This document shows positions 7,016 to 33,279 of a DNA stretch of 64,000 bases, piece after piece. Under the pieces are notes generated by a model that saw only the letters and a list, made by a program, of their open reading frames with translations, was not told the origin of the DNA and searched no databases. Numbering within the stretch: position 1 is the stretch's first letter; each line of letters starts with the position of its first letter. Origin of the DNA: a virus; IMG/VR virus record IMGVR_UViG_3300010883_000009, positions 1 to 64,000 of that record. One strand, 5' to 3'. A program made the translations under genes and the position numbers.

Positions 7016-8194
7016 TTATTTGGATTTTTTACTATAGTCAGCCTGTGCGCGGATGCAAGCACCCTGAGAAACCGAATAAAAAGGCGTATCAGAATGCCTA
7101 ACTCGATATACATTAAATGGCAACTCAGAACTTTCGATAGCCTTACTCAGTCTATCACAAAATCCGGGAGCCATTGAAGTTCCTCCAGCAACAACTATCT
7201 CAACCTCGCCGTCCAATTCGCTGTTTAGATCTTTGAATTGCTGACTAATATGATGAACCATACGCTCAACCATCTCGTCACTATATACAGATAGCGCAGC
7301 TTGTATTCTGTCCGACATATCAACATTACCCAAATCAAGCTTCTTTTCCTTGACTTTGATAACTTTGCTTTTCTTAAACCCTGTCATGGTCGCTACCTGT
7401 TCATCCAAATAATCTCCAGATTTAGTGCAAGAAAACTCAACAATACTCAATCCCTTGTAGGCAAGAGCCAAATTCCACATACCTCCGCCGCAACTGCAAG
7501 TTATACCGCTCAATGGAACCTCTTCTTCATCTTCTTTCATGATAGGGTTACAATCATAAGTAATACACATTGCTTCATTGACCGGCTTGGCATCATAACC
7601 CATGCGTTCAAAGAAGTTTTGCAGAATCATTTCATGGAATTTGTTATTGATAGGAGAGTCAACGGGATCAGCAGGGACAGAAAACCTTAACGATTCTCCT
7701 TCCACCTTAGGATCGCCAACTACCGCTTTGATAATGTAGAAAAGCAATTCTGTAGATTCTTGGAGAGAAGGATTAAGAATCCCATCCTGCATAGGACGGA
7801 CTACTTCGCCTTTGCCAATTGCGTTGACTAATGTCAAAGCATCTTCCCCAACTACAAAATACTTCTTGCCAACTTTAACATAGAGATAGCTGCTCTTTTC
7901 GAGCAAATCCATAGCTTCCTCTGAAATATCAAGCGGATAAAGCATGTTACGATGGAAACGGTTTACAAACGTTCCATCTTTTGTTCTACGGGCAACTACA
8001 ATGTTGCTCGTACCAATATCTACGCCACAACCCGGCAAATACTCAACTGCTTCGTCTTCCTCATTAGCGATTTTGACAGTTGTTTGATTTTGAGAATCTT
8101 GGACGGGTTGAGCTTCTTCATTTGATTCTTTCTTAGGTGCTTCGCCGTTGCCAGCTACATCTTCCAAGACCTCATCTAGAATATCGTCGCTCAT
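7016..8194 (-). CDS. Actin-superfamily (MreB/ParM-like) ATPase
   Basis: Phosphate-1 GVDIGTSN, connect VNEA, phosphate-2 SCGGGMWN, adenosine VVAGGTS motifs. Confidence 0.8.
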   Translation of the reverse strand: MSDDILDEVLEDVAGNGEAPKKESNEEAQPVQDSQNQTTVKIANEEDEAVEYLPGCGVDIGTSNIVVARRTKDGTFVNRFHRNMLYPLDISEEAMDLLEKSSYLYVKVGKKYFVVGEDALTLVNAIGKGEVVRPMQDGILNPSLQESTELLFYIIKAVVGDPKVEGESLRFSVPADPVDSPINNKFHEMILQNFFERMGYDAKPVNEAMCITYDCNPIMKEDEEEVPLSGITCSCGGGMWNLALAYKGLSIVEFSCTKSGDYLDEQVATMTGFKKSKVIKVKEKKLDLGNVDMSDRIQAALSVYSDEMVERMVHHISQQFKDLNSELDGEVEIVVAGGTSMAPGFCDRLSKAIESSELPFNVYRVRHSDTPFYSVSQGACIRAQADYSKKSK

Positions 8195-10846: not shown

Positions 10847-11944
10847 CTAAATTTGTACCCCGACTGATTTTAAGTCTTCTTTTGCCTTCTCTACATAGGC
10901 TCCCTGATCAATTGCGTCTAAGGTGCTTTTTAAGCCGTCTTCACCAACATCTTGTTCAAGATACTCAACCATATCTCCTGTTTGATGAGCCACATTGAAC
11001 CCCATACTTATCATCGCAGTTAAATTCCCGAGATCTTTTGATGACGCCGCTTTTAAACGAGTATGTATATCTTCCACCGTCTCTCTCGTTTCATCAATTC
11101 CTTGCGCAGACCAATGATCATACCAAGATGGGAAAACCAAATGTTGATAGAATTCTGTTAAAATTCCATCTAAGCTACCCCAATTCTGCAATGACTGAAC
11201 AAACGATTCAACATCTCCGCCAAACAGAACATCAGGTTCAAGATCTACATTCTCAACCGTATAGTAATCTTCAATCCATGCTTCTGCCTCTTCTATCGTT
11301 TCGAATTCTTGATCGTGACTCAAGTTGAAATCTTCCAAATTATATTGAGCCGAATCAATTTCTGAATTCTTATAGTCAGGTAAAAACGCATTCTCGACAT
11401 ACCTTATTAAAGATGGGTAACTCTCTTTGTCATTGAGAGCAGTACTCAATATTTCGTACATGTGAGTAGAATAATCGGGAGAGCTACCAAATCCGCTGTT
11501 GAGCCGCTGCCTGTCGTTATGAACATATTTGTCATACTCCCACAACAAATTGTTAACCATCGATTCAGAATCGCCTTCGCCGTTGACTTCCTGATAGTCC
11601 CGCTCTCCTTGCACTCGCTTAGATGCCCAAGTGTTAGGAGTTAGAATGGCATGGCTATCCAACCATTTCTCCAAAGTTTCCAACAGTTTCTTCTGAAGTT
11701 CTTCAGCAATTTCAATCAAACTTTGTTCTAACTGGCGTTGAATATTCTCTTGTCGTTTAGGATGACCTTGAAAAGGAAGTTCGCGCATCATGGAGAACTT
11801 GAATTCCATTTCATGAAACTCTTTGATTTTGCTAGCGAAGTTTCGTTCATCGTCCCATTCGTTCACATCTTCTTCATCAGGACGATACTCCCATATCTGG
11901 GCAACCTTTCGAAGATCTATGGCTATACGATACCAACTTCTCAT
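10847..11944 (-). CDS. Leader-bearing acidic protein (MRSWYRIA)
   Basis: 365 aa, ATGA overlap with upstream gene. Confidence 0.6.
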   Translation of the reverse strand: MRSWYRIAIDLRKVAQIWEYRPDEEDVNEWDDERNFASKIKEFHEMEFKFSMMRELPFQGHPKRQENIQRQLEQSLIEIAEELQKKLLETLEKWLDSHAILTPNTWASKRVQGERDYQEVNGEGDSESMVNNLLWEYDKYVHNDRQRLNSGFGSSPDYSTHMYEILSTALNDKESYPSLIRYVENAFLPDYKNSEIDSAQYNLEDFNLSHDQEFETIEEAEAWIEDYYTVENVDLEPDVLFGGDVESFVQSLQNWGSLDGILTEFYQHLVFPSWYDHWSAQGIDETRETVEDIHTRLKAASSKDLGNLTAMISMGFNVAHQTGDMVEYLEQDVGEDGLKSTLDAIDQGAYVEKAKEDLKSVGVQI

Positions 11945-12465
11945 GCTATGTGCGCCTCGGGTAACTCGCTTTCTAAAACTTTATCAACTGTCAACGGACC
12001 TTCAGCATCGTATTTGTCAACCATATTCTGAATCTCTTCCAACGGAACATCATGTCGATTACGTTCAGCTAACTGTTCTGCGGTCTGACCGCCAGTCCCA
12101 ACTTCTACAAACTCTACTTCATAGCCTTGATTAACAGCCTTTTGGACAGCCGCTTTTGCTTCCCAAGCTTGAAGATTCATATTATCCAAAACCAGAGGGG
12201 TTCTGCCTTCTTCCATAGCTTGACCAATCAACGCGATCAACTGTTGGTGCTTTTCAGAAAGCGGGGACCAATCCTGAGCCTCTTCCATCGCTTCAAAGAA
12301 AGCGTTATAGCCATCAAGGTTGTCGGAAATAAGATCATCTGTCGCAAAGATGTTTTCTGGCACAACTCCTGACAACGACTTGGCGGCAGTACTCTTGCCA
12401 GAGCCACTTATGCCTCGCATAACGTAGAGCTTTTTACCTTTTGATTTGTCGTACCAACTGTCCAT
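11941..12465 (-). CDS. P-loop kinase (AAA_33/polynucleotide kinase-like)
   Basis: Walker A GISGSGKS, LVLDNMN, RNRHDVP lid; TAATG coupling gives start MDSWYDKS at 12465. Confidence 0.75.
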   Translation of the reverse strand: MDSWYDKSKGKKLYVMRGISGSGKSTAAKSLSGVVPENIFATDDLISDNLDGYNAFFEAMEEAQDWSPLSEKHQQLIALIGQAMEEGRTPLVLDNMNLQAWEAKAAVQKAVNQGYEVEFVEVGTGGQTAEQLAERNRHDVPLEEIQNMVDKYDAEGPLTVDKVLESELPEAHIA

Positions 12466-12971
12466 TATACTGTCCATTTATACATGATTTTTGGTTCCGC
12501 CCAATTCTCTGTAGTAACCGTATATCTATCACCTAAAGCGCTTATATCACCTATAATAACTTCAGGAACAGGATCTTCCAACTCGTCATTAAACTGATCT
12601 GCCGTAATGTCAATGATCATGTTGTTCAACTGAACCCAATAATGAAGCGGAGTATATGTTGCAGCTTCCATGGCTTGTTCCGCATATTGCATCTCTTCTT
12701 CTTCAGTCTCCATTGGTTCGGCAGGCAAAAAATCCTTTGCATCCATTTCGCTCCAAGCATCTATATCAGGAGTATCAACTGTAAACGTTCCCTGTGTAAC
12801 AGATGCAGCGTTATATCCGTTGTTAATGAGGATTTGAGCCAGATGCCTTGAAACAGGAAGACAAAGAGCTTTTAAACTATCATCGTCATCACGCAAGAGA
12901 GAATTTCTAACCTGAGTCGCTATCTGTTCTACTGACGGAGGCTCTTGCGCTATCTTATACCAACTTTTCAT
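12465..12971 (-). CDS. Leader-bearing papain/transglutaminase-like protein
   Basis: Start MKSWYKIAQ with GGAGG RBS; Cys (ALCLPVS), His (HYWV), Asp (IIDITADQF) triad. Confidence 0.6.
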   Translation of the reverse strand: MKSWYKIAQEPPSVEQIATQVRNSLLRDDDDSLKALCLPVSRHLAQILINNGYNAASVTQGTFTVDTPDIDAWSEMDAKDFLPAEPMETEEEEMQYAEQAMEAATYTPLHYWVQLNNMIIDITADQFNDELEDPVPEVIIGDISALGDRYTVTTENWAEPKIMYKWTV

Positions 12972-13104
12972 AGTCCTCCAAAGACATTTCTTCGCGTACT
13001 GCTTTATCGCACTCGTCGCAAATACCATGGGAATTGCCGGGGACATCGTATCCGGCATCTAGTCCTTTAAGATGTTTCTTGCACCAAGCACAATAAATCG
13101 GCAT
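12955..13104 (-). CDS. Small Zn-binding protein
   Basis: CAWC...SHGICDEC. Confidence 0.6.
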   Translation of the reverse strand: MPIYCAWCKKHLKGLDAGYDVPGNSHGICDECDKAVREEMSLEDYEKLV

Positions 13105-13162
13105 TAAACTTGCTTTAATGTGTCTGAAAATTAGCATAATTAACCCTGTCATATATCAGTAT

Positions 13163-13191
13163 TATTTCTCCAACAGAATAGCGAAACCCTT
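13163..13191 (-). promoter_or_regulatory. Putative late promoter (AAGG-N19-GAAATA)
   Basis: Recurrent motif just after a terminator. Confidence 0.55.
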
Positions 13192-13201
13192 GCCATAAAT
13201 A

Positions 13202-13226
13202 GAAAAGCCCGTCTTTCAACGGGCTA
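13202..13226 (-). terminator. Intrinsic terminator closing the leader-peptide array
   Basis: AGCCCGTT-GAAA-GACGGGCT-TTTC on the minus strand. Confidence 0.7.
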
Positions 13227-13251
13227 CGCAATGTAACTAAATCGGTTCAAA

Positions 13252-13440
13252 TTACTTGGATGTAACTAAATCGGTTAAATCCCCATCAACTTTAACATTG
13301 GATGGAACAAGTATGGTTTCGTATGACATATAGTTATCTTCCTTAGATGCCAACGAAATTATCCACCCTCCGCCTTTGCATTTGGTTACTTTAAGTGTAT
13401 TTGTTGGAGTTTTATCTTTAGCTATACGTATTATTTTCAT
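13252..13440 (-). CDS. Leader-bearing small protein (MKIIRIA)
   Basis: 62 aa with leader motif. Confidence 0.55.
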   Translation of the reverse strand: MKIIRIAKDKTPTNTLKVTKCKGGGWIISLASKEDNYMSYETILVPSNVKVDGDLTDLVTSK

Positions 13441-13507
13441 ATTTCAACTCAACTACTTGAACTACTAGAGTTATCGTCATAAGGCTCGACAAGTCCTGCT
13501 ATTGCAG

Positions 13508-13645
13508 TCAAACTGATGTCGCTACCATACCGGACTCATTTCGTTCAGGATCAAAGAATTGAAAGCCTTCTTCAATCTTAAATCCATTCTTCAACCGATC
13601 TTGAAGTATAGAGGCATTATCATTTGCTATTTTGAAAATTTTCAT
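13508..13645 (-). CDS. Leader-bearing micro-ORF (MKIFKIA, 45 aa), possibly truncated
   Basis: Manual translation; TGATG overlap with upstream gene. Confidence 0.5.
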   Translation of the reverse strand: MKIFKIANDNASILQDRLKNGFKIEEGFQFFDPERNESGMVATSV

Positions 13646-13941
13646 CAATCTCTCTTCAAAAAAATGAACTCAAAACCCTTTGTCATAAGGAAATAACACT
13701 CTTTATTGCCCCACATTGACTTTGCGAAATAAGAATCCGGATCGTCTGCAATAAATTCTTCCAATGATTCATCTTCAAGCAAAACAGCATGATCACACAT
13801 CATCTGGAATTCTTCCATAGGAACCTTTTGATGTTGAGCAATCATATTCTGCCAATTATCTTCTCCCACTTTATCACAACGCATTCTGTCGCATTGACCG
13901 AAGTATTGGAAAGGTTGAAATGCTAGTCGATAAATTCTCAT
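13645..13941 (-). CDS. Leader-bearing hypothetical protein (MRIYRLA)
   Basis: ATGA overlap fixes the start at 13941. Confidence 0.6.
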   Translation of the reverse strand: MRIYRLAFQPFQYFGQCDRMRCDKVGEDNWQNMIAQHQKVPMEEFQMMCDHAVLLEDESLEEFIADDPDSYFAKSMWGNKECYFLMTKGFEFIFLKRD

Positions 13942-14327
13942 TGCTGAGGTCTCCAATACATAGTCGCAGAAAGTGGGTCTGAAATGGTAAAGTCCGTATT
14001 CCTGCCCCTGTTTGGAACAAAGCCATGCCCTTTGTAAAAGTCGTTTAGTTTCTTTTTGTAGCCTACTTCAGGCTCTGGACTTAAAGAGATGGGCTTTCCT
14101 CTTCTTTGAGCGAACTCTTGTATCGCCCTTATGATTTCACTACCGATACCTTTTCGCCTCATGTCTACAGGCAGACGCAATTCTGATAACTGAATCTTAC
14201 TTTCAGTTTCGTATGCCCAAAGATCTAATTCAGGATATTGATTCATAAAAGAATCAATAATAGACTGCAACTCGGCGTTAGCTTCGTCAAGTTCGTCAGA
14301 TTGCTGCGCTATTCTATAGATCTTCAT
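13938..14327 (-). CDS. Leader-bearing GNAT acetyltransferase
   Basis: Motif A MRRKGIGS and FYKGHGF; start MKIYRIAQ. Confidence 0.7.
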   Translation of the reverse strand: MKIYRIAQQSDELDEANAELQSIIDSFMNQYPELDLWAYETESKIQLSELRLPVDMRRKGIGSEIIRAIQEFAQRRGKPISLSPEPEVGYKKKLNDFYKGHGFVPNRGRNTDFTISDPLSATMYWRPQQ

Positions 14328-14658
14328 TATTTTGGACCTCAATCAATATGCCCTTATCAATGACGTATATAGAATTAGGTTGCCCACTACCCTCATCTAC
14401 CCAAAAAGAACTAAATCCATTCTCTTGAGCTTCGAAAATACCTTTATCAAAACTAGCTTCATCATAAGCTTTTGGCAATTCAAACGCAGTATATATAGCT
14501 TCAGATGGAATTAAAAACGACTGTATTTCAAAATCTCTACCCGATTGAGTGAATTGTCTTGCCCATTCTCTATCGGTAGTAAAATAATTACCACCTTTAT
14601 TGTAAGAACCCTCGCCTCGATATACCGTTATGTTTTGCGCTATCCTAAAAATCTTCAT
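14314..14658 (-). CDS. Leader-bearing ADP-ribosyltransferase-fold protein
   Basis: VYRGE...YFTTDREWARQF; start MKIFRIAQ. Confidence 0.5.
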   Translation of the reverse strand: MKIFRIAQNITVYRGEGSYNKGGNYFTTDREWARQFTQSGRDFEIQSFLIPSEAIYTAFELPKAYDEASFDKGIFEAQENGFSSFWVDEGSGQPNSIYVIDKGILIEVQNNEDL

Positions 14659-15023
14659 TGATAGCTTCCATCCTCTTGTCTCTTCATGACCTTTCTTATC
14701 GCTATCCTTGAAGAATCGAATATAACCCAATTGTGATCTAGATTTATACTGTCAAATCCATTATCTTCAATCTGTTGTAAGAATAACTTTTCATACTCTT
14801 CCCATCCCGCTATATTCTTCACACGCAAATCGACGCTAAGGATATATTTACTGGAATTTGCGCCCGAAGTTCCGCCAATGATTTCATTAATGTCATCTGA
14901 AAACCAAAACACGCCTTGCGCAGAAAAATTCCTATCAAATGTTTCAAAGGGTTTATTCGTCCCATGATAAGCTTGAATGGTCTGTTCTGCCGATTCTTCT
15001 TGAGCTATCCTATAGATCTTCAT
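14655..15023 (-). CDS. Leader-bearing ADP-ribosyltransferase-fold protein (polyvalent-protein type)
   Basis: AYHGTNKPFETFD...GVFWFSDD...GFDSI...WVIFD; start MKIYRIAQ. Confidence 0.6.
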   Translation of the reverse strand: MKIYRIAQEESAEQTIQAYHGTNKPFETFDRNFSAQGVFWFSDDINEIIGGTSGANSSKYILSVDLRVKNIAGWEEYEKLFLQQIEDNGFDSINLDHNWVIFDSSRIAIRKVMKRQEDGSYQ

Positions 15024-15513
15024 AATCCTCAATATATTCTGAAATATCGTCAAAATTACTCGATAATTCACTAATGGAAACATCTCCTTGATTAAAATGT
15101 ATATCGGGACGTTTGTTCCAAGAAAATCCTCCACCAGTCTCATATAAAGAGTGATGAATGTCAACTTCATAAATCCCTTCTCGAACTTGAACAATGCAAT
15201 ACACATGTTGTTCAAAAGAAGACGATTGAGTAAAACATGCTATTCCGTTATCATTCAAAATAGATGCGATTTGATCTGCTATGAAATGACAAATGCCGCC
15301 GCCTGCATAAGTATCTATTTTTGCTTCATCCCATTCATCATATTCTTTTTGTGCTGCTTTAACAATATGTGGGATTAAAACGCCTACATCGTTAATACTC
15401 TTTAACTCATTAAATTTAGAACGATATTTTTGTATTCTTTCATTTTGGCTTTCGTCCTCCGCATCATACCACCATGGATCTTCAACCTCTTGCGCTAGTC
15501 GATAAATTCTCAT
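15010..15513 (-). CDS. Leader-bearing papain-like fold protein
   Basis: GGICHFIA / QHVYC / YEVDI Cys-His-Asp order; start MRIYRLAQ. Confidence 0.5.
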   Translation of the reverse strand: MRIYRLAQEVEDPWWYDAEDESQNERIQKYRSKFNELKSINDVGVLIPHIVKAAQKEYDEWDEAKIDTYAGGGICHFIADQIASILNDNGIACFTQSSSFEQHVYCIVQVREGIYEVDIHHSLYETGGGFSWNKRPDIHFNQGDVSISELSSNFDDISEYIEDYEDL

Positions 15514-15917
15514 GCAGGCGGTTCCCATTTTTTACTTCTATGGAATTCTGAAATATATTGAGGGGGAATTACTCCATGATATTCTAAAGTTTTCCCATTA
15601 GAATTATTTGAATCTTGTTTTAAAAGCTCTGGATCTATTCCTTCAGTATCAATTTGTAAAATAACTATTTCATCTAACCATTTCTCTTCAACAACATCTG
15701 ACGATTCAGCATATGATTCAGCCACCCATGGATCAAAAGCCAGATATACATTTTCTTGACTCATATCCCAGTTTTTAGTTTTATTGCCTTTAAGTCCATT
15801 TGTCATTATAGACTCTAAATGAAGCAAATATGTGGCATGATATAAATACTTCTCCGAAATATATTCTGGTTCAGGAATTTCTACCAACGAACTTTGTGAT
15901 ATCTTATAAATCTTCAT
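15510..15917 (-). CDS. Leader-bearing ART-fold protein (Tpt1/KptA-like)
   Basis: LYHAT...SIMTNGL...VYLA...ILQID...IPPQYI. Confidence 0.6.
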   Translation of the reverse strand: MKIYKISQSSLVEIPEPEYISEKYLYHATYLLHLESIMTNGLKGNKTKNWDMSQENVYLAFDPWVAESYAESSDVVEEKWLDEIVILQIDTEGIDPELLKQDSNNSNGKTLEYHGVIPPQYISEFHRSKKWEPPA

Positions 15918-16501
15918 ATCTGATATTCCTTAAATACCTTTTGAAAAGACTTATTGAATATCAATATCTCTTGCGTAGGGGTCTCTCCAATGAAAATATC
16001 ATTGGGGTTATTTGTACCTACAAATACAACAACATCAAACTTAGAAAACTTTTGTGTTGCGATTTTAGAAACCCATTCAGAATATTCTAATCCCAAATCA
16101 GGATAATACAATCCTACCGCCGCGAGCGCCTCAATAATTGATTCATAAGGGCTATAAGATGCTTTTTTTATCTGTTCATTGAAAACCATTTTGAATTCCA
16201 TGTCCGTTGCCCAATAATCTATCTTAACCTTCTTCAAAGCCCTTTTTAGAATATCACCTATTGCCGACTCAGCTTTAGAAGGATTAATCTTCTTGATTAC
16301 CGCATCATCTGGAACTTGAACTTCATAAACGTTTTCGCCAAACATATTCGCAAATTCGGGCTTATTGGTAACATACATCGCTTCTCCCAAAGGATTGTAG
16401 TGCTGTTCTTCCTTTGCCGCCTGAGAAGGATCATATTCGTCAAATTCAGGGCTGTCTGTACCATGATAATACGTTGGAGTAGCTTTCCTATAAATTTTCA
16501 T
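15914..16501 (-). CDS. Leader-bearing ADP-ribosyltransferase-fold protein
   Basis: YYHGT...FDEYD...LGEAMYVTNKPEFA...VYEV...QEILIF. Confidence 0.6.
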   Translation of the reverse strand: MKIYRKATPTYYHGTDSPEFDEYDPSQAAKEEQHYNPLGEAMYVTNKPEFANMFGENVYEVQVPDDAVIKKINPSKAESAIGDILKRALKKVKIDYWATDMEFKMVFNEQIKKASYSPYESIIEALAAVGLYYPDLGLEYSEWVSKIATQKFSKFDVVVFVGTNNPNDIFIGETPTQEILIFNKSFQKVFKEYQI

Positions 16502-16508
16502 TCTATAT

Positions 16509-16536
16509 TACTTCTTCGCAGTTTCCCGTCTTCCTT
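16509..16536 (-). promoter_or_regulatory. Putative late promoter of the leader-peptide array (AAGG-N18-GAAGTA)
   Basis: Recurrent motif, 7 nt before ATG 16501. Confidence 0.5.
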
Positions 16537-16630: not shown

Positions 16631-17710
16631 ATGCATAAAACTATAACAAAGGAAACTAAAAAGAAAATAGCAAAAACAAAAAGCGAAGCAGGTAGAACGC
16701 AAATCCTAGAAGGAGCAAAATCTTTCACCCAAACGCCTTCAGAAAATAATCTGAAAGTGTCTTCCCATAGAAAACATAACTTCATATCACTCGATGAATA
16801 TAAACAACTACTATCTCAAGGTAAAACTACCCTAGAAGTATGCAAAATAACCTCTAAACACTTAATCTACTTCTATAATGCACTACTTAAAGGTAGAATA
16901 ACCCTATCCAAAGAAGACTTCGAAACAATGTATGACAATGGACTATCCCTAAATGAAATAGCCTTGAAATCCAACACCCCAAGAGAATATATCACCCAAC
17001 TAAGAAACTTCTATGCCATTAAGCGTAAAGGCGCTACCTTCCAAAAACGCCTAAATAACGAACAACCTCTCCCTCAAGAAGCGAAAAATATCATCATCGG
17101 TTCTATGCTAGGAGATGGGCATATTACAAAAAATGGTTACTTTTCAGAAAAACATTCCCCAGCCCAATTAGAATATTTACAATGGAAAGCATCTTTCTTC
17201 CCCAACCTAACAACTGACAAATCTTGGGCTTATTATGAATCAATAGATAAACGTTCAGGATCTTTAATCAAAACCCATTCGTTCAGAACTACTGTACATT
17301 CTTGGATTCAGGAAATGGAGAAATTATGGTACAAAGAAATTGATGGCAAACGAATTAAAGTTGTTCCTGAAGAAATCGAAGGATGGATGAATGAACAAGT
17401 CTTAGCCGTTTGGTTTATGGATGATGGGCTTACAGATTGGCACTATCGAAATGGGATAAAAACGTATGCAAACATTCAACCAAACTGCTACCTGTGTACG
17501 GATTCTTTTAATGGGAAAAACATGGATAAACTTTTGAAAACCCTTGAGTCTAAATTTTTACTAAAAAGCAAAATAAACTCTAGAAACAGAGTCTCATTTA
17601 ACGTCTATAACACTAAGTTATTAATGAAAACAATAATCTCTTATACTCATAAAACAATGCTTTACAAAGTAGATGAAAAAAGTTATTGTGAATTGTTGAA
17701 AAGCAGATAG
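16631..17710 (+). CDS. Free-standing LAGLIDADG homing endonuclease
   Basis: IIGSMLGDG and LAVWFMDDG motifs; opposite strand, AT-rich, own AAGGAG RBS. Confidence 0.85.
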   Translation: MHKTITKETKKKIAKTKSEAGRTQILEGAKSFTQTPSENNLKVSSHRKHNFISLDEYKQLLSQGKTTLEVCKITSKHLIYFYNALLKGRITLSKEDFETMYDNGLSLNEIALKSNTPREYITQLRNFYAIKRKGATFQKRLNNEQPLPQEAKNIIIGSMLGDGHITKNGYFSEKHSPAQLEYLQWKASFFPNLTTDKSWAYYESIDKRSGSLIKTHSFRTTVHSWIQEMEKLWYKEIDGKRIKVVPEEIEGWMNEQVLAVWFMDDGLTDWHYRNGIKTYANIQPNCYLCTDSFNGKNMDKLLKTLESKFLLKSKINSRNRVSFNVYNTKLLMKTIISYTHKTMLYKVDEKSYCELLKSR

Positions 17711-17736: not shown

Positions 17737-19233
17737 TTAACTCCCTGATTTAAACAAATATCTAAACCACCGCGATCTCCCTCCCGGCAATGTATATTCG
17801 GGCGTGACGTATAGCGCGATGCCCGGAAGTTTACGGGTTTTGACGTTCTTGCCGAACTCCACCCATGTCTCTTGATATGATTTGTAAAGATCTTGGTAAA
17901 GAGACGCTGCATTTTGAGCATCTTCTGGACGACCATAAATTATGCGCTTCTCCTGCCAAGTCAACCCGAAAATCAAACGTTTCATAGCGGTTGCAGCGGC
18001 ATACAGTAGAATCCCAGCGTCCCAAATCGCAGGAGCGGCTTCTAAGGAACTGAATGCCTCACTTGCTGGCGGCAAACCATTCATCATCTTAAGTCCTAGA
18101 CGCAAGAACGAAAGCATCTCTTCTTTACTAAAATAGGAGAAGTTGAAAGCTGCCGAAATACTGTCTTCAGGTGCCATAAGGGAATCGAAATACAGCTTGC
18201 CCATATAGTCTGCATGCCATCCGTCATCAACAATTCGGTTGTTAACTCTAACTACAGGTCTTGGAAATTGATTCCAATTCTCATATGCAAAATTGTAAAC
18301 AGTAGAGAACGTACTTTCTTTCTTAGTATACTCTGTGTAGGTAATAGACGGATCTCCATCGCCGTCAGCCAACAGAAGCGTACCATAAGCAGTCGGATCT
18401 CCAGTCCCAACGCATGTTAACACGATCTTATGACTATACGGAGTCGTAGTCGTTGTAATTAGCTCTTCGGAAGTACTTGAACTAGTGGTATCTGATGAAG
18501 AAGATTCCCCTAAGGCTGACTCTGATGACGTAGAAGAGGAGCGCTGTTCGCTACTAGAACTATCTGAGCTAGATGAATCGACAGAGCTACTCGAACTAGA
18601 ATCTAAACTGGATGAGCTACTAGATTGGTTTGACGAGCTACTAGAGTAATTTGAGTATGGCAACGATTCATAGACAGTAAAGCTTTGACCGTTGTTCATG
18701 TACTTGTCGCCCTCGTAAGCTTCTTGCCCTTCGCTATCGATGACAAAATAGTAGTAGCTTTTTGTACGCTTCTGCTGATTGTCCTGCTGGATACGCATCC
18801 CTTGTTCAAAATACAAAGGAATATGCTGTGACTCATATATGAAATCGTTCGACAAATCAATTAATAGTTGGCTTGCCCTGTCGGAAACATCTGTCGCTTT
18901 ACCCTTTGACAGGAAATTGATGTACGATTCCAAACTGTACACATCGAACAGCATTGTCTGTTCTTCGATGTTAGAAGAAGAACTGAATTGGTATGTCCAT
19001 CGGTCATAGTAATGACCAAGAGGCAAATTGGCAGGAACGTACCAGTCCGCATACCATACGCCCAAGTTCTCTTCTTGAGCGGGTACAGTATCTAAAACCG
19101 TTACGCCGTCTGTGTCGAGGATCTCAACAAATGGTTGCCCCGCTGGATCGCAAAGCCTTCCATCACGACTAAAATGGCAATACAGTCGGACAAGTTCGTT
19201 CTGTAAAGCCGTTGTTCTTGTTTGAATTGACAT
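17737..19233 (-). CDS. Virion structural (neck/head-closure-like) protein with central poly-Ser/Thr linker
   Basis: 498 aa; N-terminal beta domain (GVWYADW...GHYYDRW), ~60-aa Ser tract, helical C-terminus. Confidence 0.5.
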   Translation of the reverse strand: MSIQTRTTALQNELVRLYCHFSRDGRLCDPAGQPFVEILDTDGVTVLDTVPAQEENLGVWYADWYVPANLPLGHYYDRWTYQFSSSSNIEEQTMLFDVYSLESYINFLSKGKATDVSDRASQLLIDLSNDFIYESQHIPLYFEQGMRIQQDNQQKRTKSYYYFVIDSEGQEAYEGDKYMNNGQSFTVYESLPYSNYSSSSSNQSSSSSSLDSSSSSSVDSSSSDSSSSEQRSSSTSSESALGESSSSDTTSSSTSEELITTTTTPYSHKIVLTCVGTGDPTAYGTLLLADGDGDPSITYTEYTKKESTFSTVYNFAYENWNQFPRPVVRVNNRIVDDGWHADYMGKLYFDSLMAPEDSISAAFNFSYFSKEEMLSFLRLGLKMMNGLPPASEAFSSLEAAPAIWDAGILLYAAATAMKRLIFGLTWQEKRIIYGRPEDAQNAASLYQDLYKSYQETWVEFGKNVKTRKLPGIALYVTPEYTLPGGRSRWFRYLFKSGS

Positions 19234-27355: not shown

Positions 27356-29491
27356 ATGAACGAAGTAAATGTAGATATAGCGTCAAATTTGACACCTTTC
27401 GAAGAAAAGGTCTTCGAGGTGATAGAAGGAGTGCGTCAAAAAAGAGCGCCTAATACAGTAGTTCGCGTAGCAGGCGGATGGGTCAGGGATAAACTTCTTG
27501 ATACTCCATCGGATGATATCGACATTATGGTTGACAATATGAGCGGAGAAGCTTTCGCTCAAATCATGGCTGAAGAAATGGGTCTAAAAGGACCGGCTGT
27601 CATAAAAAGCAATCCCGATAAAACAAAAAACATTGAAACAGCCACGATGCGTGTTCCTATTGACGGAGAAGAAGTTGAATTAGATTTTGCCCAATGTCGA
27701 ACAGAAGAATATGGGGAAAATCGCAGAGAAGTAATTACTACCCCCGCTACCGCTGAAGAAGATGCTATGCGTAGAGATCTTACCATCGGTGCATTGTTCT
27801 ACAACGTTAACGAAAAGAAAGTCGAAGACTTCACTGGTAAGGGCTTGACAGACCTAATTACAGGAACCATTCGTACTCCTTACGATACCGGAGACGAATC
27901 CTCTACAGAGGAAGTTAAGAAAACCTTTATCGAAGATCCGCTGCGAGTCTTCAGGGCAATCCGTTTTGCTGCAAAGTACGAAGGAAATATTTCTCCTGCA
28001 ACTTTGGCATCTTTACAAGATCCAGAGGTAATCAACGCCATCTTCTTCTCTGAACGCAAGATCGCTACAGAAAGAATTGGTCAAGAATTCCAGAAAATGC
28101 TCAAAGGTCCGAACCCCGCCCTTGCAATTAAGCTCTTGAAAGAAACCGGGCTTATGCAGCACATTCTAAATGAATCTCTTAAGGGAACGGAATACGAAGA
28201 GGGCATGGAAGAACTCGATATGGAGCAGAATAATCCTCATCATGAAATGAATGTATGGGAACATACTTATCAGGTTCTAACCAACCTTATTCAACACTTC
28301 CCTGAAGATGATGAAGAAAAACGGATAATAATGATACTAGGAGCTTTGACGCATGATTTGGGCAAGCTATACACCAAGGTGCATGGCGATAGCGCGAGTC
28401 ATCCCGGCAGAACCTCTTATCATGGTCATGAAAAGGAAAGCAAATTTATTGCTGAGCATATCTTGCGCTTCTTGAAATTCGAGAATCAGATTGTAAAACA
28501 AGTCGCAGGACTAGCTCGTTATCATATGCAGCCTCACTCTCTTGAGAGAGGAGATGCTGCTTCGGGTTCTATGAGAAAGTTCATTCGTCGTATGGGAGAA
28601 CAGTCATTGAACTGGCTTGACGTATTCAACCTTTCTGTTGCGGATGCATACTCGAAAGGTCTTGAGGTTAAGCCTGAAACCATCGAATCTTATCAGCAAC
28701 TAAGAGAACAGCTAGAACAAGCGCTTGCATCAATGCAGATGGAAGAGACGAAAGTTAAACCTGTTCTTGATGGTCATCAAATCATGGAAGCCTTGCAAGT
28801 TAAGCCGGGTCCGCACATGGGTGTTGTTCAGGAATACCTTAAAGACATGATCGATAAATACCCTGAAACAACTGTTGAAGAAGCGGCAAGTCGCTTGCGG
28901 CAAGTCAGAGATCAAGCAGAAGTCATGATGAATGACGACACGAACCCGACAATTATCGAAGATTACATCGTCAATGTTATTCAAGCAGATGTAAAAACCG
29001 CTAGCGGATCGGGTAAGTACATTTCTGCCTGCGTTTGCCCACAACAACTCTTCAAACAGAAACATTCAGATGTACATCAATGTTTAAGAGAAGGCAATCT
29101 AACAAAAGCGGTTGCAATCATGAAAGAGTTCTCCTCAAAGTACCCTGAGGATGATAAGGTGGCTCGAATGACAGCTATTTCGATGTTTAATATCTTGTCG
29201 CAAGACATTAAGTTGCGCGACAATGACCTATTGCAATTTGCCCTCGACAGAACGGAGCACAGTATGTTTGACCCCGTATTGCATTCATATGCTGCTGGGC
29301 TTTTGATTCTTCTTAAGACGGTAACTGAACCTGATATCATTTTGCAAATGGGTAATGATATGGCTAAAATAAACCCCGGCATTCTTAGAGGCGTTCTCGA
29401 TGCTTTGCCGAAAGAGGTTTACCACGATGATATTCGCCAGCAACTAAAGGCAGCAATAGATGGAGATTTGAAAGATGGATCAGATGGTTAA
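27356..29491 (+). CDS. cca: CCA-adding tRNA nucleotidyltransferase (class II) with HD domain
   Basis: GGWVRD, DIDI, EDAMRRDLT, EDPLRVFRAIRF; HD motifs VWEHT, HDLGK, GHE. Confidence 0.85.
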   Translation: MNEVNVDIASNLTPFEEKVFEVIEGVRQKRAPNTVVRVAGGWVRDKLLDTPSDDIDIMVDNMSGEAFAQIMAEEMGLKGPAVIKSNPDKTKNIETATMRVPIDGEEVELDFAQCRTEEYGENRREVITTPATAEEDAMRRDLTIGALFYNVNEKKVEDFTGKGLTDLITGTIRTPYDTGDESSTEEVKKTFIEDPLRVFRAIRFAAKYEGNISPATLASLQDPEVINAIFFSERKIATERIGQEFQKMLKGPNPALAIKLLKETGLMQHILNESLKGTEYEEGMEELDMEQNNPHHEMNVWEHTYQVLTNLIQHFPEDDEEKRIIMILGALTHDLGKLYTKVHGDSASHPGRTSYHGHEKESKFIAEHILRFLKFENQIVKQVAGLARYHMQPHSLERGDAASGSMRKFIRRMGEQSLNWLDVFNLSVADAYSKGLEVKPETIESYQQLREQLEQALASMQMEETKVKPVLDGHQIMEALQVKPGPHMGVVQEYLKDMIDKYPETTVEEAASRLRQVRDQAEVMMNDDTNPTIIEDYIVNVIQADVKTASGSGKYISACVCPQQLFKQKHSDVHQCLREGNLTKAVAIMKEFSSKYPEDDKVARMTAISMFNILSQDIKLRDNDLLQFALDRTEHSMFDPVLHSYAAGLLILLKTVTEPDIILQMGNDMAKINPGILRGVLDALPKEVYHDDIRQQLKAAIDGDLKDGSDG

Positions 29492-30141: not shown

Positions 30142-33100
30142 CTAAACGACATTAGATCTGTGAATCGCTAAGGCCGTCTTATACCAATTGTAATTGCTTC
30201 CACGAACAAGTTTTCTGTCAACACTTTTTGCAAGCCACATCCAATCTGCCCCATAATCTTGTTCCATCTCTGCAATAAACTGTCCACCATCTTCTGCATC
30301 TTGTGGACTAACTGGAGTCGGTTTTTGTTCTTGAAAATCAGCGGACTTCAACTGTTTTTCCCTTTCTACCATTTCTACTACATCCTTTAAAAGAGATTGC
30401 GGCAAAGCTTCTTCAAACAAGCTGTTGACAGTTGTCATATCTACGCTATAAAGTGTCGATGGTGGCCCAAACATTAACAACAACAAATCCTCAATTCCAA
30501 ACAACGTTCTTAGTTTTTGTGGAGTGTTCCGATCTATGTAGCTTTTGAAACGACTAACAAACGCATCCGCATCATAGAAATTATACGCATTTTGAAGAAT
30601 CTCTTGACACCCGTTTAAAAACTGCTTATAGTCTTCTCTTTGACTCAATTCATTAATAAACTTATCTGGTGAATAAGGGTTTCGTTCAGTCGTGTCCTCT
30701 GGTACAACGATCTCTTCATCAAATGTTATATCCTCAACTTTTTTCCCAACGTCTGACAATTGAGATTGCAATTGGTCTTCAACCTTAGATCTCATGAATT
30801 TACGCAAAAAGAACTGAGTGAACATATTCGTCATATTGTCTATCTGTTCTTCTTTAGACATGCTATTTAATGCTTCGATAGCGCTATCGTTAAATTCAGG
30901 CATTGCCGTATCCATTTTTGACAACGCTTCCTGTTTGCTCATCCCTAAAAACTCCCATGCAAAAGCGTCAATTATATCAGATTTGATTTGACTCAAGAAG
31001 CCTTCTGTTATTCTATCAGGGAACGGATAATTAGATTCAAAATACTCATGGATTCTTTGTTTAATATGTTGAAGGTTTCCATATGTAATTGCGGCAATTT
31101 CTTGGGGAGAACTTACCCATTGAGACTCACTCTCTATCTCCTCGCTTCTGCCTTCTACGACTTGATCTAAAAACGAATGGGCAATTTCATGCCATAACGT
31201 GTTTTCTTCAGAGAAAGACAGATCTTTTTCTATTGCATCAATTCCTAATTCGTTCAAAACCTGCTCTGAAGTGGGCATGCCGTTGATTTGATCAGTAAAT
31301 ACAACTATTGTAGCATCTGTTCCAAACATGCTATATTTACCTGCAAAAAAGCCATTAGCATCTTGTGGAGTAGCTGGGAAATATTTAGCTCCTTCTTCTC
31401 CTAACAAACTCATATATTTAGATGCGTTAATAAAATAGATATTCATCTTTTTAAGTTCTTGCATCGCTCGTTCAGTTTTAGGTATATATCCTTCTGAATC
31501 AGGGGAATATGCCTCTTCAGTACCAACATTAGAGTTTACGAAATCTACTACTCGTTGATATACTTCTGGGAAATCTGTTATCTTATTCTTTTTAACTGCA
31601 TCCGATTCTAAAAACGATGGAAGTTTACTCCTCACTTCTTTATGGACTTCCTTCTCTTTGCTTTCAAGTATTTTGCGTACCGCTTCCCTTAGCTTTTCTG
31701 AGTCTCCTGCGCATTGCATGTGGTCAATTACTTTTTTAATATCGTTTACGCTTCCCTGCGCTTTCTCAAGAACTTTGGAACAAGGGAACAATCCTGACAA
31801 ATAGAAAAACCATGAGCCTACATCTCCAGAAACGGCGGATCTAACTCGCATTGGAACCTTACTCCAAAAATCCATTGCAGATTGCATTTTGAAAGGCCAC
31901 ATTTGCGTCCAATGGATTTTTGAATCTTGTCGATAAGTACCGGCATCAAGTATTTCATTCCCTTGAACTAAATTAGAAAACATATCCGTTCCTGCCGCTT
32001 CCGTTAAATCCTTTATGGTTTTTGACTTTACTATTTGCAAATAATCATGATCTGTCATGTCCTCACTAGATAACTTTTGATTTATCCATTCGTTAGACAA
32101 ATCGGCTTCTTCCTTAATGGTCATTCTAGTGGCTCTTTTTAGATAGTCAATATAAGAGTCGCTATAGGATGACGTAACAGAATTAGGATCGGTTCTATCT
32201 TGACCCCCTTTGGCTAAATCTTGATATATTCCTTTTTCTTCATTTATAGCATACACACTTGGCGGTAAGCTTTCTGGTATATTTTCAACGTCTCTAGATC
32301 TAAGGTCTCTGTCTAAATCCTGTTGCCAATTAATTTCCCAGTAATCTTCAATACTAGAATTTATAACCTTGCCCGCTTCATGCAATACTTCTATGCGTAT
32401 TACTTGTGGCCCTAACATCAAATTTTTAACTATTCCAAATTGGGCAGAATTATCAATCGTCACAGTAAGCGGATTGTCTTCAGTCAAAAACTCTTGATTG
32501 TTTTCATAAGCGTTATTTACATCTTGCAACTCCTGAAGCATTTCAGTCCCATACAACATCCAATTTTCCCCGTTATAATGCTGTTGAGATCTAACTTTTT
32601 CCATTTTGTCTCTAAAGTTCCCACTATTTAATAAATAACGGTATATGTCAAATGAAAGCGCCCTTTCTTGTGGAGAAAGCTTCTTCCAATTATCAGGGTT
32701 GCTTGTGTCCATCTCTGACATCTTTTGCGATCCATCCAATATAGCAAAGGTCTCTTTTGATGGAAATTCTAGATAGTCTTTTACATATTGCTTTCTTTGT
32801 TCAATTGATCCGTTTTGCATTGCAGACGCTATCGACGGATATTGTTGAGATATAAATTGTACAAAATCATCTGGATATGAATTGGGGGTTGACAATATGT
32901 CGCTAGCCGTTTCTGCACTAAACCTAGACCTAGAGAATTTTTGCATTATGGTCTGATATACCCAATCTGGCATGTCAGATGGAATTCCGTATTTGAGTTG
33001 GGCTTTTTGTAGGAACGAGTCTAATGCCCCCTTGATCATTCTCTCATCCATATTCCATTGTAAACATTTTTGGATGTCCCATAAGCTCAAATATACATAG

Positions 33101-33279
33101 TTTGGATACCTGACAAAATACTTCAGACGCATAGAGGCATCATTCGTATCAAGAGTGAATCTCCTTATCTTGTCTTTTTGGTCGTTTGTAAGTTCGTTCT
33201 CAGGAGGCATATTGTCAATATCATGACCGCCGACACCGGACATGAACTCATCAACCCCTGATAATCTATATATATTCAT
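30142..33279 (-). CDS. Large leader-bearing protein with HExxH zinc metallopeptidase motif
   Basis: MNIYRLS leader; LWHEIAH plus downstream PQEIAA; C-terminal NWYKTA. Confidence 0.6.
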   Translation of the reverse strand: MNIYRLSGVDEFMSGVGGHDIDNMPPENELTNDQKDKIRRFTLDTNDASMRLKYFVRYPNYVYLSLWDIQKCLQWNMDERMIKGALDSFLQKAQLKYGIPSDMPDWVYQTIMQKFSRSRFSAETASDILSTPNSYPDDFVQFISQQYPSIASAMQNGSIEQRKQYVKDYLEFPSKETFAILDGSQKMSEMDTSNPDNWKKLSPQERALSFDIYRYLLNSGNFRDKMEKVRSQQHYNGENWMLYGTEMLQELQDVNNAYENNQEFLTEDNPLTVTIDNSAQFGIVKNLMLGPQVIRIEVLHEAGKVINSSIEDYWEINWQQDLDRDLRSRDVENIPESLPPSVYAINEEKGIYQDLAKGGQDRTDPNSVTSSYSDSYIDYLKRATRMTIKEEADLSNEWINQKLSSEDMTDHDYLQIVKSKTIKDLTEAAGTDMFSNLVQGNEILDAGTYRQDSKIHWTQMWPFKMQSAMDFWSKVPMRVRSAVSGDVGSWFFYLSGLFPCSKVLEKAQGSVNDIKKVIDHMQCAGDSEKLREAVRKILESKEKEVHKEVRSKLPSFLESDAVKKNKITDFPEVYQRVVDFVNSNVGTEEAYSPDSEGYIPKTERAMQELKKMNIYFINASKYMSLLGEEGAKYFPATPQDANGFFAGKYSMFGTDATIVVFTDQINGMPTSEQVLNELGIDAIEKDLSFSEENTLWHEIAHSFLDQVVEGRSEEIESESQWVSSPQEIAAITYGNLQHIKQRIHEYFESNYPFPDRITEGFLSQIKSDIIDAFAWEFLGMSKQEALSKMDTAMPEFNDSAIEALNSMSKEEQIDNMTNMFTQFFLRKFMRSKVEDQLQSQLSDVGKKVEDITFDEEIVVPEDTTERNPYSPDKFINELSQREDYKQFLNGCQEILQNAYNFYDADAFVSRFKSYIDRNTPQKLRTLFGIEDLLLLMFGPPSTLYSVDMTTVNSLFEEALPQSLLKDVVEMVEREKQLKSADFQEQKPTPVSPQDAEDGGQFIAEMEQDYGADWMWLAKSVDRKLVRGSNYNWYKTALAIHRSNVV

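What the first reader, a model, noticed from the sequence alone, without database searches (positions are those of the whole stretch)
11941..16501. Leader-tagged cargo is a set of single-domain host-modifying enzymes
Seen: four ART-fold candidates (YHGT/YHAT/YRG strand then YF/YL/WF/YV strand), a GNAT (RRKGIG), two Cys-His-Asp papain-like proteins and a P-loop kinase, each fused behind a leader. Known: these domain types make up phage and plasmid polyvalent proteins, and T4 Alt is a head-packaged, injected ART. Inference: a polyvalent protein split into separately tagged modules, acting on entry for host takeover or anti-defence.
Basis: partly seen in the sequence, partly recalled or inferred. 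Interest (0 to 1): 0.78.

Follow-up and report, generated by a model that had tools for sequence, protein, structure and literature searches.

The report
Tagged mini-enzyme genes, huge phage
A piece of an uncultured huge phage carries a tight row of very small enzyme genes (ADP-ribosyltransferase-like, acetyltransferase, transglutaminase/papain-like, kinase), nearly all starting with the same eight-residue peptide; this tag most likely addresses them to the phage head for injection into the host, but loading has not been observed.

Summary
The observation largely holds. Window 11941-16501 (minus strand) is a tightly packed operon of 12 small genes. Ten begin with the leader MKIYRIAQ or its variant MKSWYKIAQ. 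The 94-kb record has 20 matches to the leader pattern, against about 0.15 in shuffles.

Domain calls:
- **G4:** ART-PolyVal.
- **G5:** ART fold, nearest AcrIF11.
- **G2:** Tpt1/KptA-like NAD lobe.
- **G1:** probable ART-PolyVal relative.
- **G6:** GNAT, nearest solved relative AcrVA5.
- **G3:** transglutaminase/NAT/papain-like with invariant Cys-His-Asp.
- **G10:** the same kind of call, on weak leads only.
- **G11:** a polynucleotide-kinase-like P-loop kinase with no clean leader.

The same domains occur fused in giant polyvalent proteins of other phages. In phages with a T4-type head protease they occur as single genes behind different leaders ending in L-x-E.

The best reading is a new variant of the T4 capsid-targeting-sequence and internal-protein system, carrying polyvalent-type enzyme modules one per gene. 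Packaging, cleavage, injection and enzyme activity are all inferred.

This scan has reported similar tags, including an MNWYK tag, on other phage DNA. I found no published description. The record is only about 20% of a genome, and no head protease was identified.

The parts
15914..16501 (-). G1, 195 aa, A-type leader; probable ART-PolyVal/AcrIF11-like ADP-ribosyltransferase domain with an inserted helical region
   Evidence: Atlas nearest clusters are ART-PolyVal and AcrIF11_ADP_ribosyl at 0.95. tblastn to the second ART domain of the L055 polyvalent ORF, E 3e-4. One of 5 family members hits PF18760, E 4e-4. hhalign to the G4 family is inconclusive.
15510..15917 (-). G2, 135 aa, A-type leader; Tpt1/KptA-like NAD-binding (ART-fold) lobe only
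   Evidence: 522 representatives at E<=1e-3, both single-domain and embedded in proteins of up to 1662 aa. Against the PDB, the family profile's top 7 hits are Tpt1 (E 8e-4 to 1.4e-3), then DarT and PARP10. PF01885 is found on two long homologues. phrog_5470 RNA 2'-phosphotransferase, E 6.5e-4.
15010..15513 (-). G3, 167 aa, A-type leader; transglutaminase/arylamine-N-acetyltransferase/papain-like Cys-His-Asp domain with no Pfam family
   Evidence: 90 homologues; C75, H103 and D118 are invariant in 61 sequences. AF2 pLDDT 89.7, with the Cys at a helix N-terminus and the His and Asp on the next strands. VIA top hits: NAT Z 7.2, then transglutaminases, LapG and protein-glutaminase at Z 4.5-5.5. 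An in-frame copy lies in the L044 polyvalent ORF.
14655..15023 (-). G4, 122 aa, A-type leader; ART-PolyVal family ADP-ribosyltransferase domain
   Evidence: PF18760 at E 1.1e-5, below the gathering score. 46 of 51 homologues hit PF18760, best E 1.3e-16. Homologues lie inside ORFs of up to 2263 aa.
14314..14658 (-). G5, 114 aa, A-type leader; minimal ART-fold protein, nearest solved structure AcrIF11
   Evidence: AF2 pLDDT 86.7. All Foldseek top-50 hits are ARTs, best E 3.5e-3, prob 0.99-1.0. VIA best hit 6KYF: Z 7.1, rmsd 2.9 A, 90 residues. 6KYF is cited together with AcrIF11.
13938..14327 (-). G6, 129 aa, A-type leader; mini GNAT acetyltransferase
   Evidence: Acetyltransf_7 at E 3.4e-5, below the gathering score. 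Against the PDB, the family profile hits 6IUF (AcrVA5) at E 6.7e-7, then about 100 GNATs. phrog_10691 positions 2689-2791 of 3925, E 6e-16.
13645..13941 (-). G7, 98 aa, A-type leader; Cys-rich, no assignable domain
   Evidence: Leader at the ORF start. No Pfam or PHROG hit.
13508..13645 (-). G8, 45 aa, A-type leader; unknown
13252..13440 (-). G9, 62 aa, A-type leader; unknown, basic
12955..13152 (-). Untagged 65-aa ORF with two CxxC pairs; its 3' end overlaps the G10 leader
   Evidence: promoter-like motif at 13190-13163
12465..12971 (-). G10, 168 aa, B-type leader; possible transglutaminase-like Cys-His-Asp protein (weak)
   Evidence: Pfam YunG E 0.007. Atlas leads: Transglut_core3/YunG at 0.85-0.86, TM 0.51-0.57. 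hhalign to the G3 family gives 10% over the Cys helix. phrog_26734 E 1.9e-4.
11941..12477 (-). G11, 178 aa; P-loop kinase of the AAA_33/polynucleotide-kinase type with only a degenerate S-W-Y remnant of the tag
   Evidence: AAA_33 E 1.4e-14 and Zeta_toxin E 1.1e-4. phrog_2071 E 1.4e-20, phrog_505 polynucleotide kinase E 2.5e-9, and phrog_6931.
10847..11944 (-). G12, 365 aa, B-type leader; very acidic, unknown. It follows the kinase with a 4-nt overlap.
16509..16535 (-). Promoter-like bipartite motif (AGG, 18-19 nt, GAA-R-TA) 8 nt upstream of G1
   Evidence: 23 copies in the record against 4.2 in shuffles. Copies also lie upstream of other tagged genes and of head-module genes.

Best explanation
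The interval is a cargo operon of an uncultured huge phage. It is a row of single-domain enzymes, each translated behind a 7-8-residue N-terminal address peptide (A type MKIYRIAQ, B type MKSWYKIAQ).

Shown:
- The tag is real and is selected at the peptide level.
- The domains are four ART-fold proteins (two solid, two moderate), a GNAT, one or two transglutaminase/papain-like Cys-His-Asp proteins, and a PNK-like kinase that lacks a clean tag.
- The same domain families occur fused in polyvalent proteins, and behind other lineage-specific leaders in other phages.

Inferred:
- The tag works like the T4 capsid targeting sequence, or an encapsulin cargo-loading peptide. It would bind the scaffold or the inner capsid surface during prohead assembly, so that the enzymes are enclosed. 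The head protease may then remove it.
- The enzymes leave with the DNA and act at once on host proteins or nucleic acids by ADP-ribosylation, acetylation, or thiol-dependent cleavage or deamidation. This would happen before any phage gene is expressed, which suits takeover or counter-defence.
- Functionally this is a polyvalent protein delivered as separately tagged modules.
For: Tag:
- 20 matches to the leader pattern in the record against about 0.15 expected; 19 of them start ORFs of 30 aa or more.
- Arg5 uses six codons from both the AGR and CGN families, all other positions vary synonymously, and the upstream DNA is unrelated.
- B-type motifs also sit 15-19 residues from the C-termini of the two large A-tagged proteins.
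- In the AF2 models the first 10 residues have the lowest confidence at the N-terminal end (pLDDT 60-67), which fits an appendage.

Domains.

Comparison with other phages:
- Homologues of G3, G4, G5 and G2 from other metagenomes start with A- or B-type tags in 9 of 89, 4 of 10, 16 of 29 and 3 of 61 cases.
- Others carry leaders ending in hydrophobic-x-Glu.
- L016 has nine tandem genes behind one 14-residue leader ending L-x-E, with an ART-PolyVal among them.
- Three of 5 such records encode a T4 gp21-type S77 protease, E about 1e-31.
- T4 loads diverse internal proteins through a 10-residue CTS that gp21 removes (PMC9026906, PMC3012670). T4 Alt is a packaged, injected ART (PMC5512222).

Spread:
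- 46 metagenome loci carry the exact tag, with 121 tagged ORFs in 228 kb and arrays of up to 10.
- A Pfam census of 87 of them gives GNAT 8, ART-PolyVal 4, KTSC 2, and NUDIX, Acb1, 2H and DUF3990 once each.

Polyvalent link.

Context: the operon lies on the same strand as portal and terminase, between them and a minor-tail-like gene. It shares a promoter-like motif with head-module genes.
Against: - There are no virion proteomics, and the phage is uncultured.
- The record is about 20% of a genome. It holds no S77 or S78 protease, so no protease can be matched to the tag.
- The tag has no Glu, so it is not a T4-type cleavage site.
- The cargo proteins are acidic (pI 4.1-5.9), unlike the basic T4 internal proteins.
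- The major capsid and scaffold genes were not identified, so 'head module' rests on portal, terminase and one tail-like hit.
- Catalytic competence is uncertain. The strand-2 Tyr of ART-PolyVal is Trp/Phe in the G4 family. The strand-1 Arg of the G5 family is Gln in 4 of 30 members. G2 lacks the N-terminal lobe of Tpt1.
- Structural Z scores are middling (7.1-7.2).
- The timing class of the promoter-like motif is unknown.
Confidence: 0.55

Rival explanations
1. The tag is a sorting or assembly signal for a destination other than the capsid. Examples are a shared docking hub, a chaperone or an intracellular phage compartment. On this reading the enzymes act from within the infected cell after being made there, and are not injected.
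For: Nothing ties the tag physically to the head. The cargo is acidic. The phage encodes cytoskeletal and AAA-type proteins, including a Volactin-like actin. The tag also marks very large proteins of 792 and 1045 aa.
Against: The same cargo families in gp21-protease phages carry leaders ending in that protease's cleavage motif and sit in IP-like arrays. The arrays lie in a conserved block co-oriented with portal and terminase.
Confidence: 0.2
2. The tag is an N-terminal degron or regulatory peptide read by the phage's own ClpP or AAA+ machinery. It would give the enzymes a short, timed life.
For: A canonical ClpP lies at 76281-76796, E 6e-52. The tag is short, terminal and partly basic-hydrophobic, as some Clp N-degrons are (my own knowledge, not tested).
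Against: There is no evidence of degradation. A degron would not explain the parallel with CTS-type leaders on the same families, nor the tag-like motifs near C-termini.
Confidence: 0.08
3. The shared start is a DNA-level cassette joint or a translation-initiation element that promotes gene shuffling or expression. The peptide itself would have no function.
For: Some pairs of leaders are identical at the DNA level. Array content differs between relatives.
Against: Every codon position varies synonymously, including the AGR and CGN Arg codons. There is no conserved upstream sequence. The peptide is conserved across distant metagenomes on 30-60% identical cargo. Motif copies lie near C-termini.
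Confidence: 0.05
4. Several of the 'enzymes' are inactive binding modules (pseudo-ARTs or a pseudo-transglutaminase), or they act on nucleic acids in RNA repair rather than modifying host proteins.
For: The triads are non-canonical. G2 resembles Tpt1 and DarT, which act on RNA or DNA. G11 matches a polynucleotide-kinase PHROG and a PHROG it shares with the CCA-adding-like protein at 27356-29491.
Against: G3 keeps an invariant Cys-His-Asp across 61 sequences. H20 in G4, E89 in G5, and H27 in G2 are invariant. G6 keeps the GNAT acetyl-CoA loop, and its closest solved relative is an active enzyme.
Confidence: 0.25

Closest known systems
Phage T4 capsid targeting sequence (CTS) on internal proteins IPI-III, and the propeptides of Alt
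   Same: A short N-terminal peptide is shared by otherwise unrelated small proteins encoded in variable arrays. Cargo includes an ART and anti-defence proteins. Tag-like sequences can occur at both ends, as in Alt (PMC9026906).
   Different: The peptide is different and has no Glu cleavage motif. No gp21-type protease is found in the fragment. There are far more tagged genes: 19 in 20% of a genome. The cargo is acidic and mostly enzymatic. Nothing has been measured.
Polyvalent proteins of phages and conjugative elements (Iyer et al. 2017, PMC5512222)
   Same: The domain set is the same: ART-PolyVal, GNAT, 2H/NUDIX in relatives, and thiol peptidase-like modules. There is direct homology to domains inside 480-2260-aa polyvalent ORFs. 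Both are predicted to be delivered with the DNA.
   Different: Here each domain is a separate gene with its own tag, so the defining multi-domain polypeptide is absent.
AcrIF11 (ART anti-CRISPR, PDB 6KYF) and AcrVA5 (GNAT anti-CRISPR, PDB 6IUF)
   Same: They are the closest solved relatives of G5 (Z 7.1) and of the G6 family (E 6.7e-7). They are minimal single-domain phage enzymes of similar size.
   Different: Identity is low (11% for G5). The target-binding surfaces are not conserved or tested. The known Acrs are not tagged or known to be packaged.
Tpt1/KptA RNA 2'-phosphotransferase and DarT
   Same: G2 shares the strand-1 H-x-T motif and the following helix of the NAD-binding lobe.
   Different: G2 has no N-terminal RNA-binding lobe, which carries part of the Tpt1 catalytic set. 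G2 itself scores below the Pfam threshold.
Encapsulin cargo-loading peptides
   Same: These are short terminal peptides that load unrelated enzymes into an HK97-fold shell. A rubrerythrin/EncFtn-like protein is among the tagged proteins of relatives.
   Different: This is an analogy only, with no sequence similarity. Encapsulin peptides are usually C-terminal.
Shared-leader cargo systems reported earlier in this scan (for example the MNWYK tag of marine huge phages, e1-5379433)
   Same: The B-type tag here and on homologues of G3-G5 is the same kind of peptide. Both mark arrays of unrelated small proteins.
   Different: Here the dominant tag is the A type. This report adds fold-level identification of the cargo. 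Those notes are unchecked AI reports.

Membership tests
ART-PolyVal (PF18760), for G4 | Match to the family HMM at or above the gathering score | tested here: inconclusive
   G4 itself scores 26.7 bits against a 31.2 cutoff. 46 of 51 homologues match at E<=1e-3, best 1.3e-16.
ART-PolyVal (PF18760), for G4 | His in strand 1, Tyr in strand 2 and Asp in strand 5 (PMC5512222) | tested here: inconclusive
   H20 is invariant. The strand-2 position is the invariant W40 with F41, not Tyr. D96 is invariant among 11 close homologues but falls below 90% in the set of 51.
ART-PolyVal (PF18760), for G4 | Occurs as a module of large multi-domain phage proteins | tested here: met
   Homologous domains lie inside ORFs of 900-2263 aa. 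L044, L046, L036 and L029 are confirmed by Pfam.
ADP-ribosyltransferase fold, for G5 | Split beta-sheet ART fold | tested here: met
   AF2 pLDDT 86.7. All 50 top Foldseek rows and all 50 VIA rows are ARTs. Best hit 6KYF: Z 7.1, rmsd 2.9 A over 90 residues. The Z score is middling.
ADP-ribosyltransferase fold, for G5 | Conserved R-S-E or H-Y-E catalytic triad | tested here: inconclusive
   E89 is invariant and the strand-2 position is Ser/Thr-rich. The strand-1 Arg is Gln in 4 of 30 members.
Tpt1/KptA (PF01885), for G2 | Two-lobe enzyme with an N-terminal RNA lobe and a C-terminal NAD lobe; HMM match above threshold | tested here: not met
   G2 scores 15.3 bits against a cutoff of 26. The domain is about 105 aa. 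It aligns only to residues of about 84-124 of Tpt1 chains. It works like an ART lobe but is not a Tpt1.
GNAT acetyltransferases, for G6 | Acetyl-CoA loop (R/Q-x-x-G-x-G/A) and a profile match to GNATs | tested here: met
   The loop is present at residues 57-62 and G60 and G62 are invariant. The family profile hits AcrVA5 at 6.7e-7 and about 100 GNAT structures. G6 alone is just below the Pfam cutoff.
Transglutaminase/NAT/papain-like thiol enzymes, for G3 | Cys at the N-terminus of a helix, with His and Asp on following strands, all conserved | tested here: met
   C75, H103 and D118 are invariant in 61 sequences. In the model the helix spans 75-88 and the strands 103-110 and 113-119.
Transglutaminase/NAT/papain-like thiol enzymes, for G3 | Overall fold match | tested here: inconclusive
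   VIA gives NAT at Z 7.2, and transglutaminases, TglA, LapG and protein-glutaminase at Z 4.5-5.5. These dominate the top 15 rows. Foldseek finds nothing at E<=0.001.
Transglutaminase/papain-like, for G10 | Fold and triad | tested here: inconclusive
   Only Pfam YunG at 0.007, Atlas leads below 0.9, and hhalign at 10%.
T4-type CTS/internal-protein system | One short N-terminal peptide shared by unrelated proteins in arrays | tested here: met
T4-type CTS/internal-protein system | gp21-type (S77) prohead protease, and a leader ending in its L/I-x-E site | tested here: not met
   There is no S77 or S78 hit in the 94-kb fragment, which is about 20% complete, so absence from the phage is not shown. 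The tag has no Glu.
T4-type CTS/internal-protein system | Proteins present in the virion and ejected | not testable with these tools
   The phage is uncultured and no proteome exists.
Polyvalent proteins (PMC5512222) | Two to fifteen effector domains in one polypeptide | tested here: not met
   Each gene here has one domain. Only the repertoire is shared.

The most novel reading that the evidence does not exclude
The A and B peptides are a portable capsid-loading code used by a widespread clade of uncultured huge phages. On this reading every tagged ORF (dozens to perhaps a hundred per genome) is an injected effector. The mini ARTs, the GNAT and the thiol enzymes would be ready-made enzymatic counter-defence proteins, relatives of AcrIF11 and AcrVA5. 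This is the modular, one-gene-per-domain alternative to a polyvalent protein. Reading the tag would then list a phage's injected arsenal from sequence alone.
Probability: 0.4. Interest if true: 0.8.

Novelty: new variant of a known kind. Interest (0 to 1): 0.62.

Why it matters
Injected phage proteins act before any phage gene is expressed, and they are hard to find without virion proteomics. That is impossible for uncultured phages. A sequence tag that marks them would allow an in-silico catalogue of first-strike effectors across huge phages. Such a catalogue would point to minimal ADP-ribosyltransferases, acetyltransferases and thiol enzymes as candidate enzymatic anti-defence proteins.

The same cargo families appear behind different tags in different phage lineages, and fused in polyvalent proteins. 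This suggests that delivery signals and effector domains evolve as separable, exchangeable parts.

Tried and rejected
- No DNA match of the interval in the cultured-phage collection. G3 and G4 have no tblastn hits there, and G2 hits only Lak megaphages.
- The exact back-translated tag found nothing in IMG/VR. The metagenome scan then found 46 loci.
- Single-protein scans of IMG/VR for G1 and G10 found no relatives.
- hhalign of G1, G2 or G5 alone, or of their family alignments, against the G4 family stayed below 70% probability. Sequence profiles therefore do not join the four ART candidates to one another.
- The G3, G4 and G5 family profiles found nothing meaningful by sequence in the PDB, and neither did G10 alone.
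- BLASTP of G3 against G10 was not significant.
- Foldseek of the G3 model against the PDB and BFVD gave no hit at E<=0.001.
- Pfam and PHROGs found nothing for the nine tagged proteins of L016. They also found nothing for most head-module neighbours, so the capsid, scaffold and head protease remain unidentified.
- The conserved 498-aa neighbour has no PDB relative by profile.
- A generic 'hydrophobic-x-Glu within 20 residues' rule is weak. It also fits 30% of control ORFs, against 60% of G3 homologues.

Full report
**What the DNA is**

The window is the first 64 kb of a 93,875-bp virus record. CheckV rates the record at about 20% complete, so it is a fragment of a much larger, probably huge, phage.
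- It encodes a portal whose closest cultured relative is Bacillus phage G at 34% identity.
- It also encodes a large terminase, a minor-tail-like protein, a glycosyltransferase-like protein and two CCA-adding-like proteins.
- Almost all genes lie on the minus strand.
- No tRNA is present in the window.

**The leader**

A regular expression for the tag gives 20 matches in the record, against 0-1 in twenty shuffles. Nineteen of them start ORFs of 30 aa or more; 18 of those lie within 45 codons of the preceding in-frame stop, and G4's lies 72 codons downstream. There are two forms: A (MKIYRIAQ) and B (MKSWYKIAQ).

Selection acts on the peptide, not the DNA:
- Arg5 is written with six codons from both codon families.
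- Every other position also varies synonymously.
- The upstream DNA is unrelated.

Conservation ends after residue 7-8. In the two AF2 models the first ten residues have the lowest confidence at the N-terminal end (pLDDT 60-67), as expected of an appendage.

Both large A-tagged proteins (792 and 1045 aa) also carry a B-like motif 15-19 residues from their C-termini. This again points to a peptide-level signal.

**The genes in 11941-16501**

Twelve ORFs are packed with 1-17-nt overlaps behind a promoter-like motif at 16535-16509. Ten carry a tag.
- **G4** belongs to ART-PolyVal. Its own Pfam score is just below threshold, but 46 of 51 homologues match the family.
- **G5** has no sequence-level match. 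Its model (pLDDT 86.7) hits only ADP-ribosyltransferases in Foldseek and VIA. The best hit is AcrIF11: 6KYF, Z 7.1, 2.9 A over 90 residues.
- **G2** belongs to a large family of 522 representatives. Against the PDB its profile finds Tpt1/KptA first, then DarT and PARP10. It has only the NAD lobe, so it is ART-like but not a Tpt1.
- **G1** is the weakest ART. Support comes from Atlas neighbours ART-PolyVal/AcrIF11 at 0.95, a tblastn hit to a polyvalent ART domain, and one family member matching PF18760.
- **G6** is a GNAT. Its family profile hits AcrVA5 (6IUF) at 6.7e-7, then about a hundred acetyltransferases.
- **G3** founds a family without a Pfam entry. It has 90 homologues, and C75, H103 and D118 are invariant. 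In its model (pLDDT 89.7) the Cys sits at a helix N-terminus and the His and Asp on the following strands. The model's best structural matches are arylamine N-acetyltransferase (Z 7.2), transglutaminases, LapG and protein-glutaminase.
- **G10** shows the same linear Cys...His...Asp pattern but has only weak support.
- **G11** is an AAA_33 kinase that matches PHROGs for polynucleotide kinase. It also matches a PHROG shared with the CCA-adding-like protein. Its N-terminus is not a proper tag.
- **G7, G8 and G9** are tagged but unassignable.

**Comparison with other phages**

Homologues of G2-G5 elsewhere come in three forms:
1. Behind the same A or B tags.
2. Behind other short leaders ending in hydrophobic-x-Glu.
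3. As modules of giant proteins.

Form 2 is organised as arrays.
- L016 has nine consecutive genes that share one 14-residue leader ending L-x-E. One of them is the ART-PolyVal homologue.
- L002, L004 and L005 show the same pattern.
- Three of five such records encode a T4 gp21-type S77 protease, whose known cleavage site follows Glu (PMC9026906).

Form 3 includes a 2240-aa ORF with 2H, SprT-like, GNAT and ART-PolyVal domains plus an in-frame G3-like domain. It also includes a 482-aa ART-PolyVal plus Tpt1-like protein.

A metagenome scan with the exact tag found 46 loci holding 121 tagged ORFs, in arrays of up to ten. A Pfam census of these proteins shows GNAT, ART-PolyVal, KTSC, NUDIX, Acb1 and 2H.

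The arrays sit in a conserved syntenic block, but their content differs between relatives. The variable internal-protein loci of T-even phages behave the same way (PMC9026906).

**Interpretation**

The most economical mechanism is a capsid-targeting tag analogous to the T4 CTS. T4 uses its CTS to load diverse defence-countering internal proteins and, with its own propeptides, the ART Alt (PMC3012670, PMC9026906, PMC5512222).

This remains inference, for these reasons:
- No protease, scaffold or capsid gene was identified in the fragment.
- The tag lacks a Glu site.
- The cargo is acidic.
- No virion data exist.

Rival readings are another sorting destination, a degron for the phage ClpP, or a DNA-level cassette joint. 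The last is disfavoured by the codon data.

Catalytic activity is also unproven, and several triads are non-canonical. G2 and G11 may belong to nucleic-acid repair or modification rather than to protein modification.

**Novelty**

I found no paper containing these tag sequences, and none describing such tags outside T4-like and phiKZ-like phages. That search covers open-access text only.

This scan has noted comparable shared-leader systems in other phage genomes, including an MNWYK tag in marine huge phages, and the same tag system in this genome. Those are unchecked AI notes.

I class the finding as a new variant of a known kind: a CTS-like cargo system carrying polyvalent-type modules.

Noticed in passing
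window 30142-33279 (-) and 33842-36220 (-): The two large A-tagged proteins (1045 and 792 aa) each carry a B-type W-Y-K-x-A motif 15-19 residues before the stop. The tag-like peptide can therefore sit at both ends of one protein.
   Followed up: partly
window 7016-8194 (-): A phage-encoded actin homologue matches Pfam Volactin (PF25216) at E 1.4e-61, with weaker MreB and actin hits.
   Followed up: no
window 16631-17710 (+): A LAGLIDADG homing endonuclease gene lies on the opposite strand, wedged between the conserved 498-aa gene and the cargo array.
   Followed up: no
whole record, e.g. window 16535-16509, 13190-13163, 37909-37883, 52204-52178: The bipartite motif AGG, 18-19 nt, GAA-R-TA occurs 23 times against 4.2 in shuffles. 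It lies directly upstream of tagged genes and of head-module genes.
   Followed up: partly
window 17737-19233 (-); L061, L075, L081, L098, L104: A 494-498-aa protein with a long poly-Ser/Thr insert is conserved next to the tag arrays in metagenome relatives. It is part of a syntenic block with the 246-aa, 361-aa and 550-aa genes. It has no Pfam, PHROG or PDB relative.
   Followed up: partly
window 39664-45258 (-): The 1864-aa protein after the portal has no Pfam hit. It contains the four-residue tail of the tag ([KR][ILVT][AS]Q) three times, against 0.34 expected.
   Followed up: partly
window 47419-49698 (-) and 52461-55523 (-): The portal carries a C-terminal HNH-like region (residues 663-734). 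The terminase ORF is 1020 aa with extra regions that match other PHROGs, possibly inserted elements.
   Followed up: no
window 62856-63920 (-); record 76281-76796 (+): A trypsin-like serine protease (Trypsin_2, E 3.9e-21) and a canonical ClpP (E 6e-52) are present. Neither is shown to be the head protease.
   Followed up: no
window 27356-29491 (+) and 59487-61928 (-): Two CCA-adding/tRNA-nucleotidyltransferase-like proteins are present. phrog_6931 links the first to the G11 kinase, hinting at an RNA-repair theme.
   Followed up: no
metagenome loci L060-L105: Tagged proteins of relatives include an Acb1-like (anti-CBASS) protein, a NUDIX protein, two KTSC proteins and a rubrerythrin/EncFtn-like protein.
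   Followed up: no
L016:6080-12581 (+): Nine tandem genes of a phage record that encodes a gp21-type (S77) protease share a 14-residue leader ending L-x-E. Only the ART homologue could be assigned a domain.
   Followed up: partly
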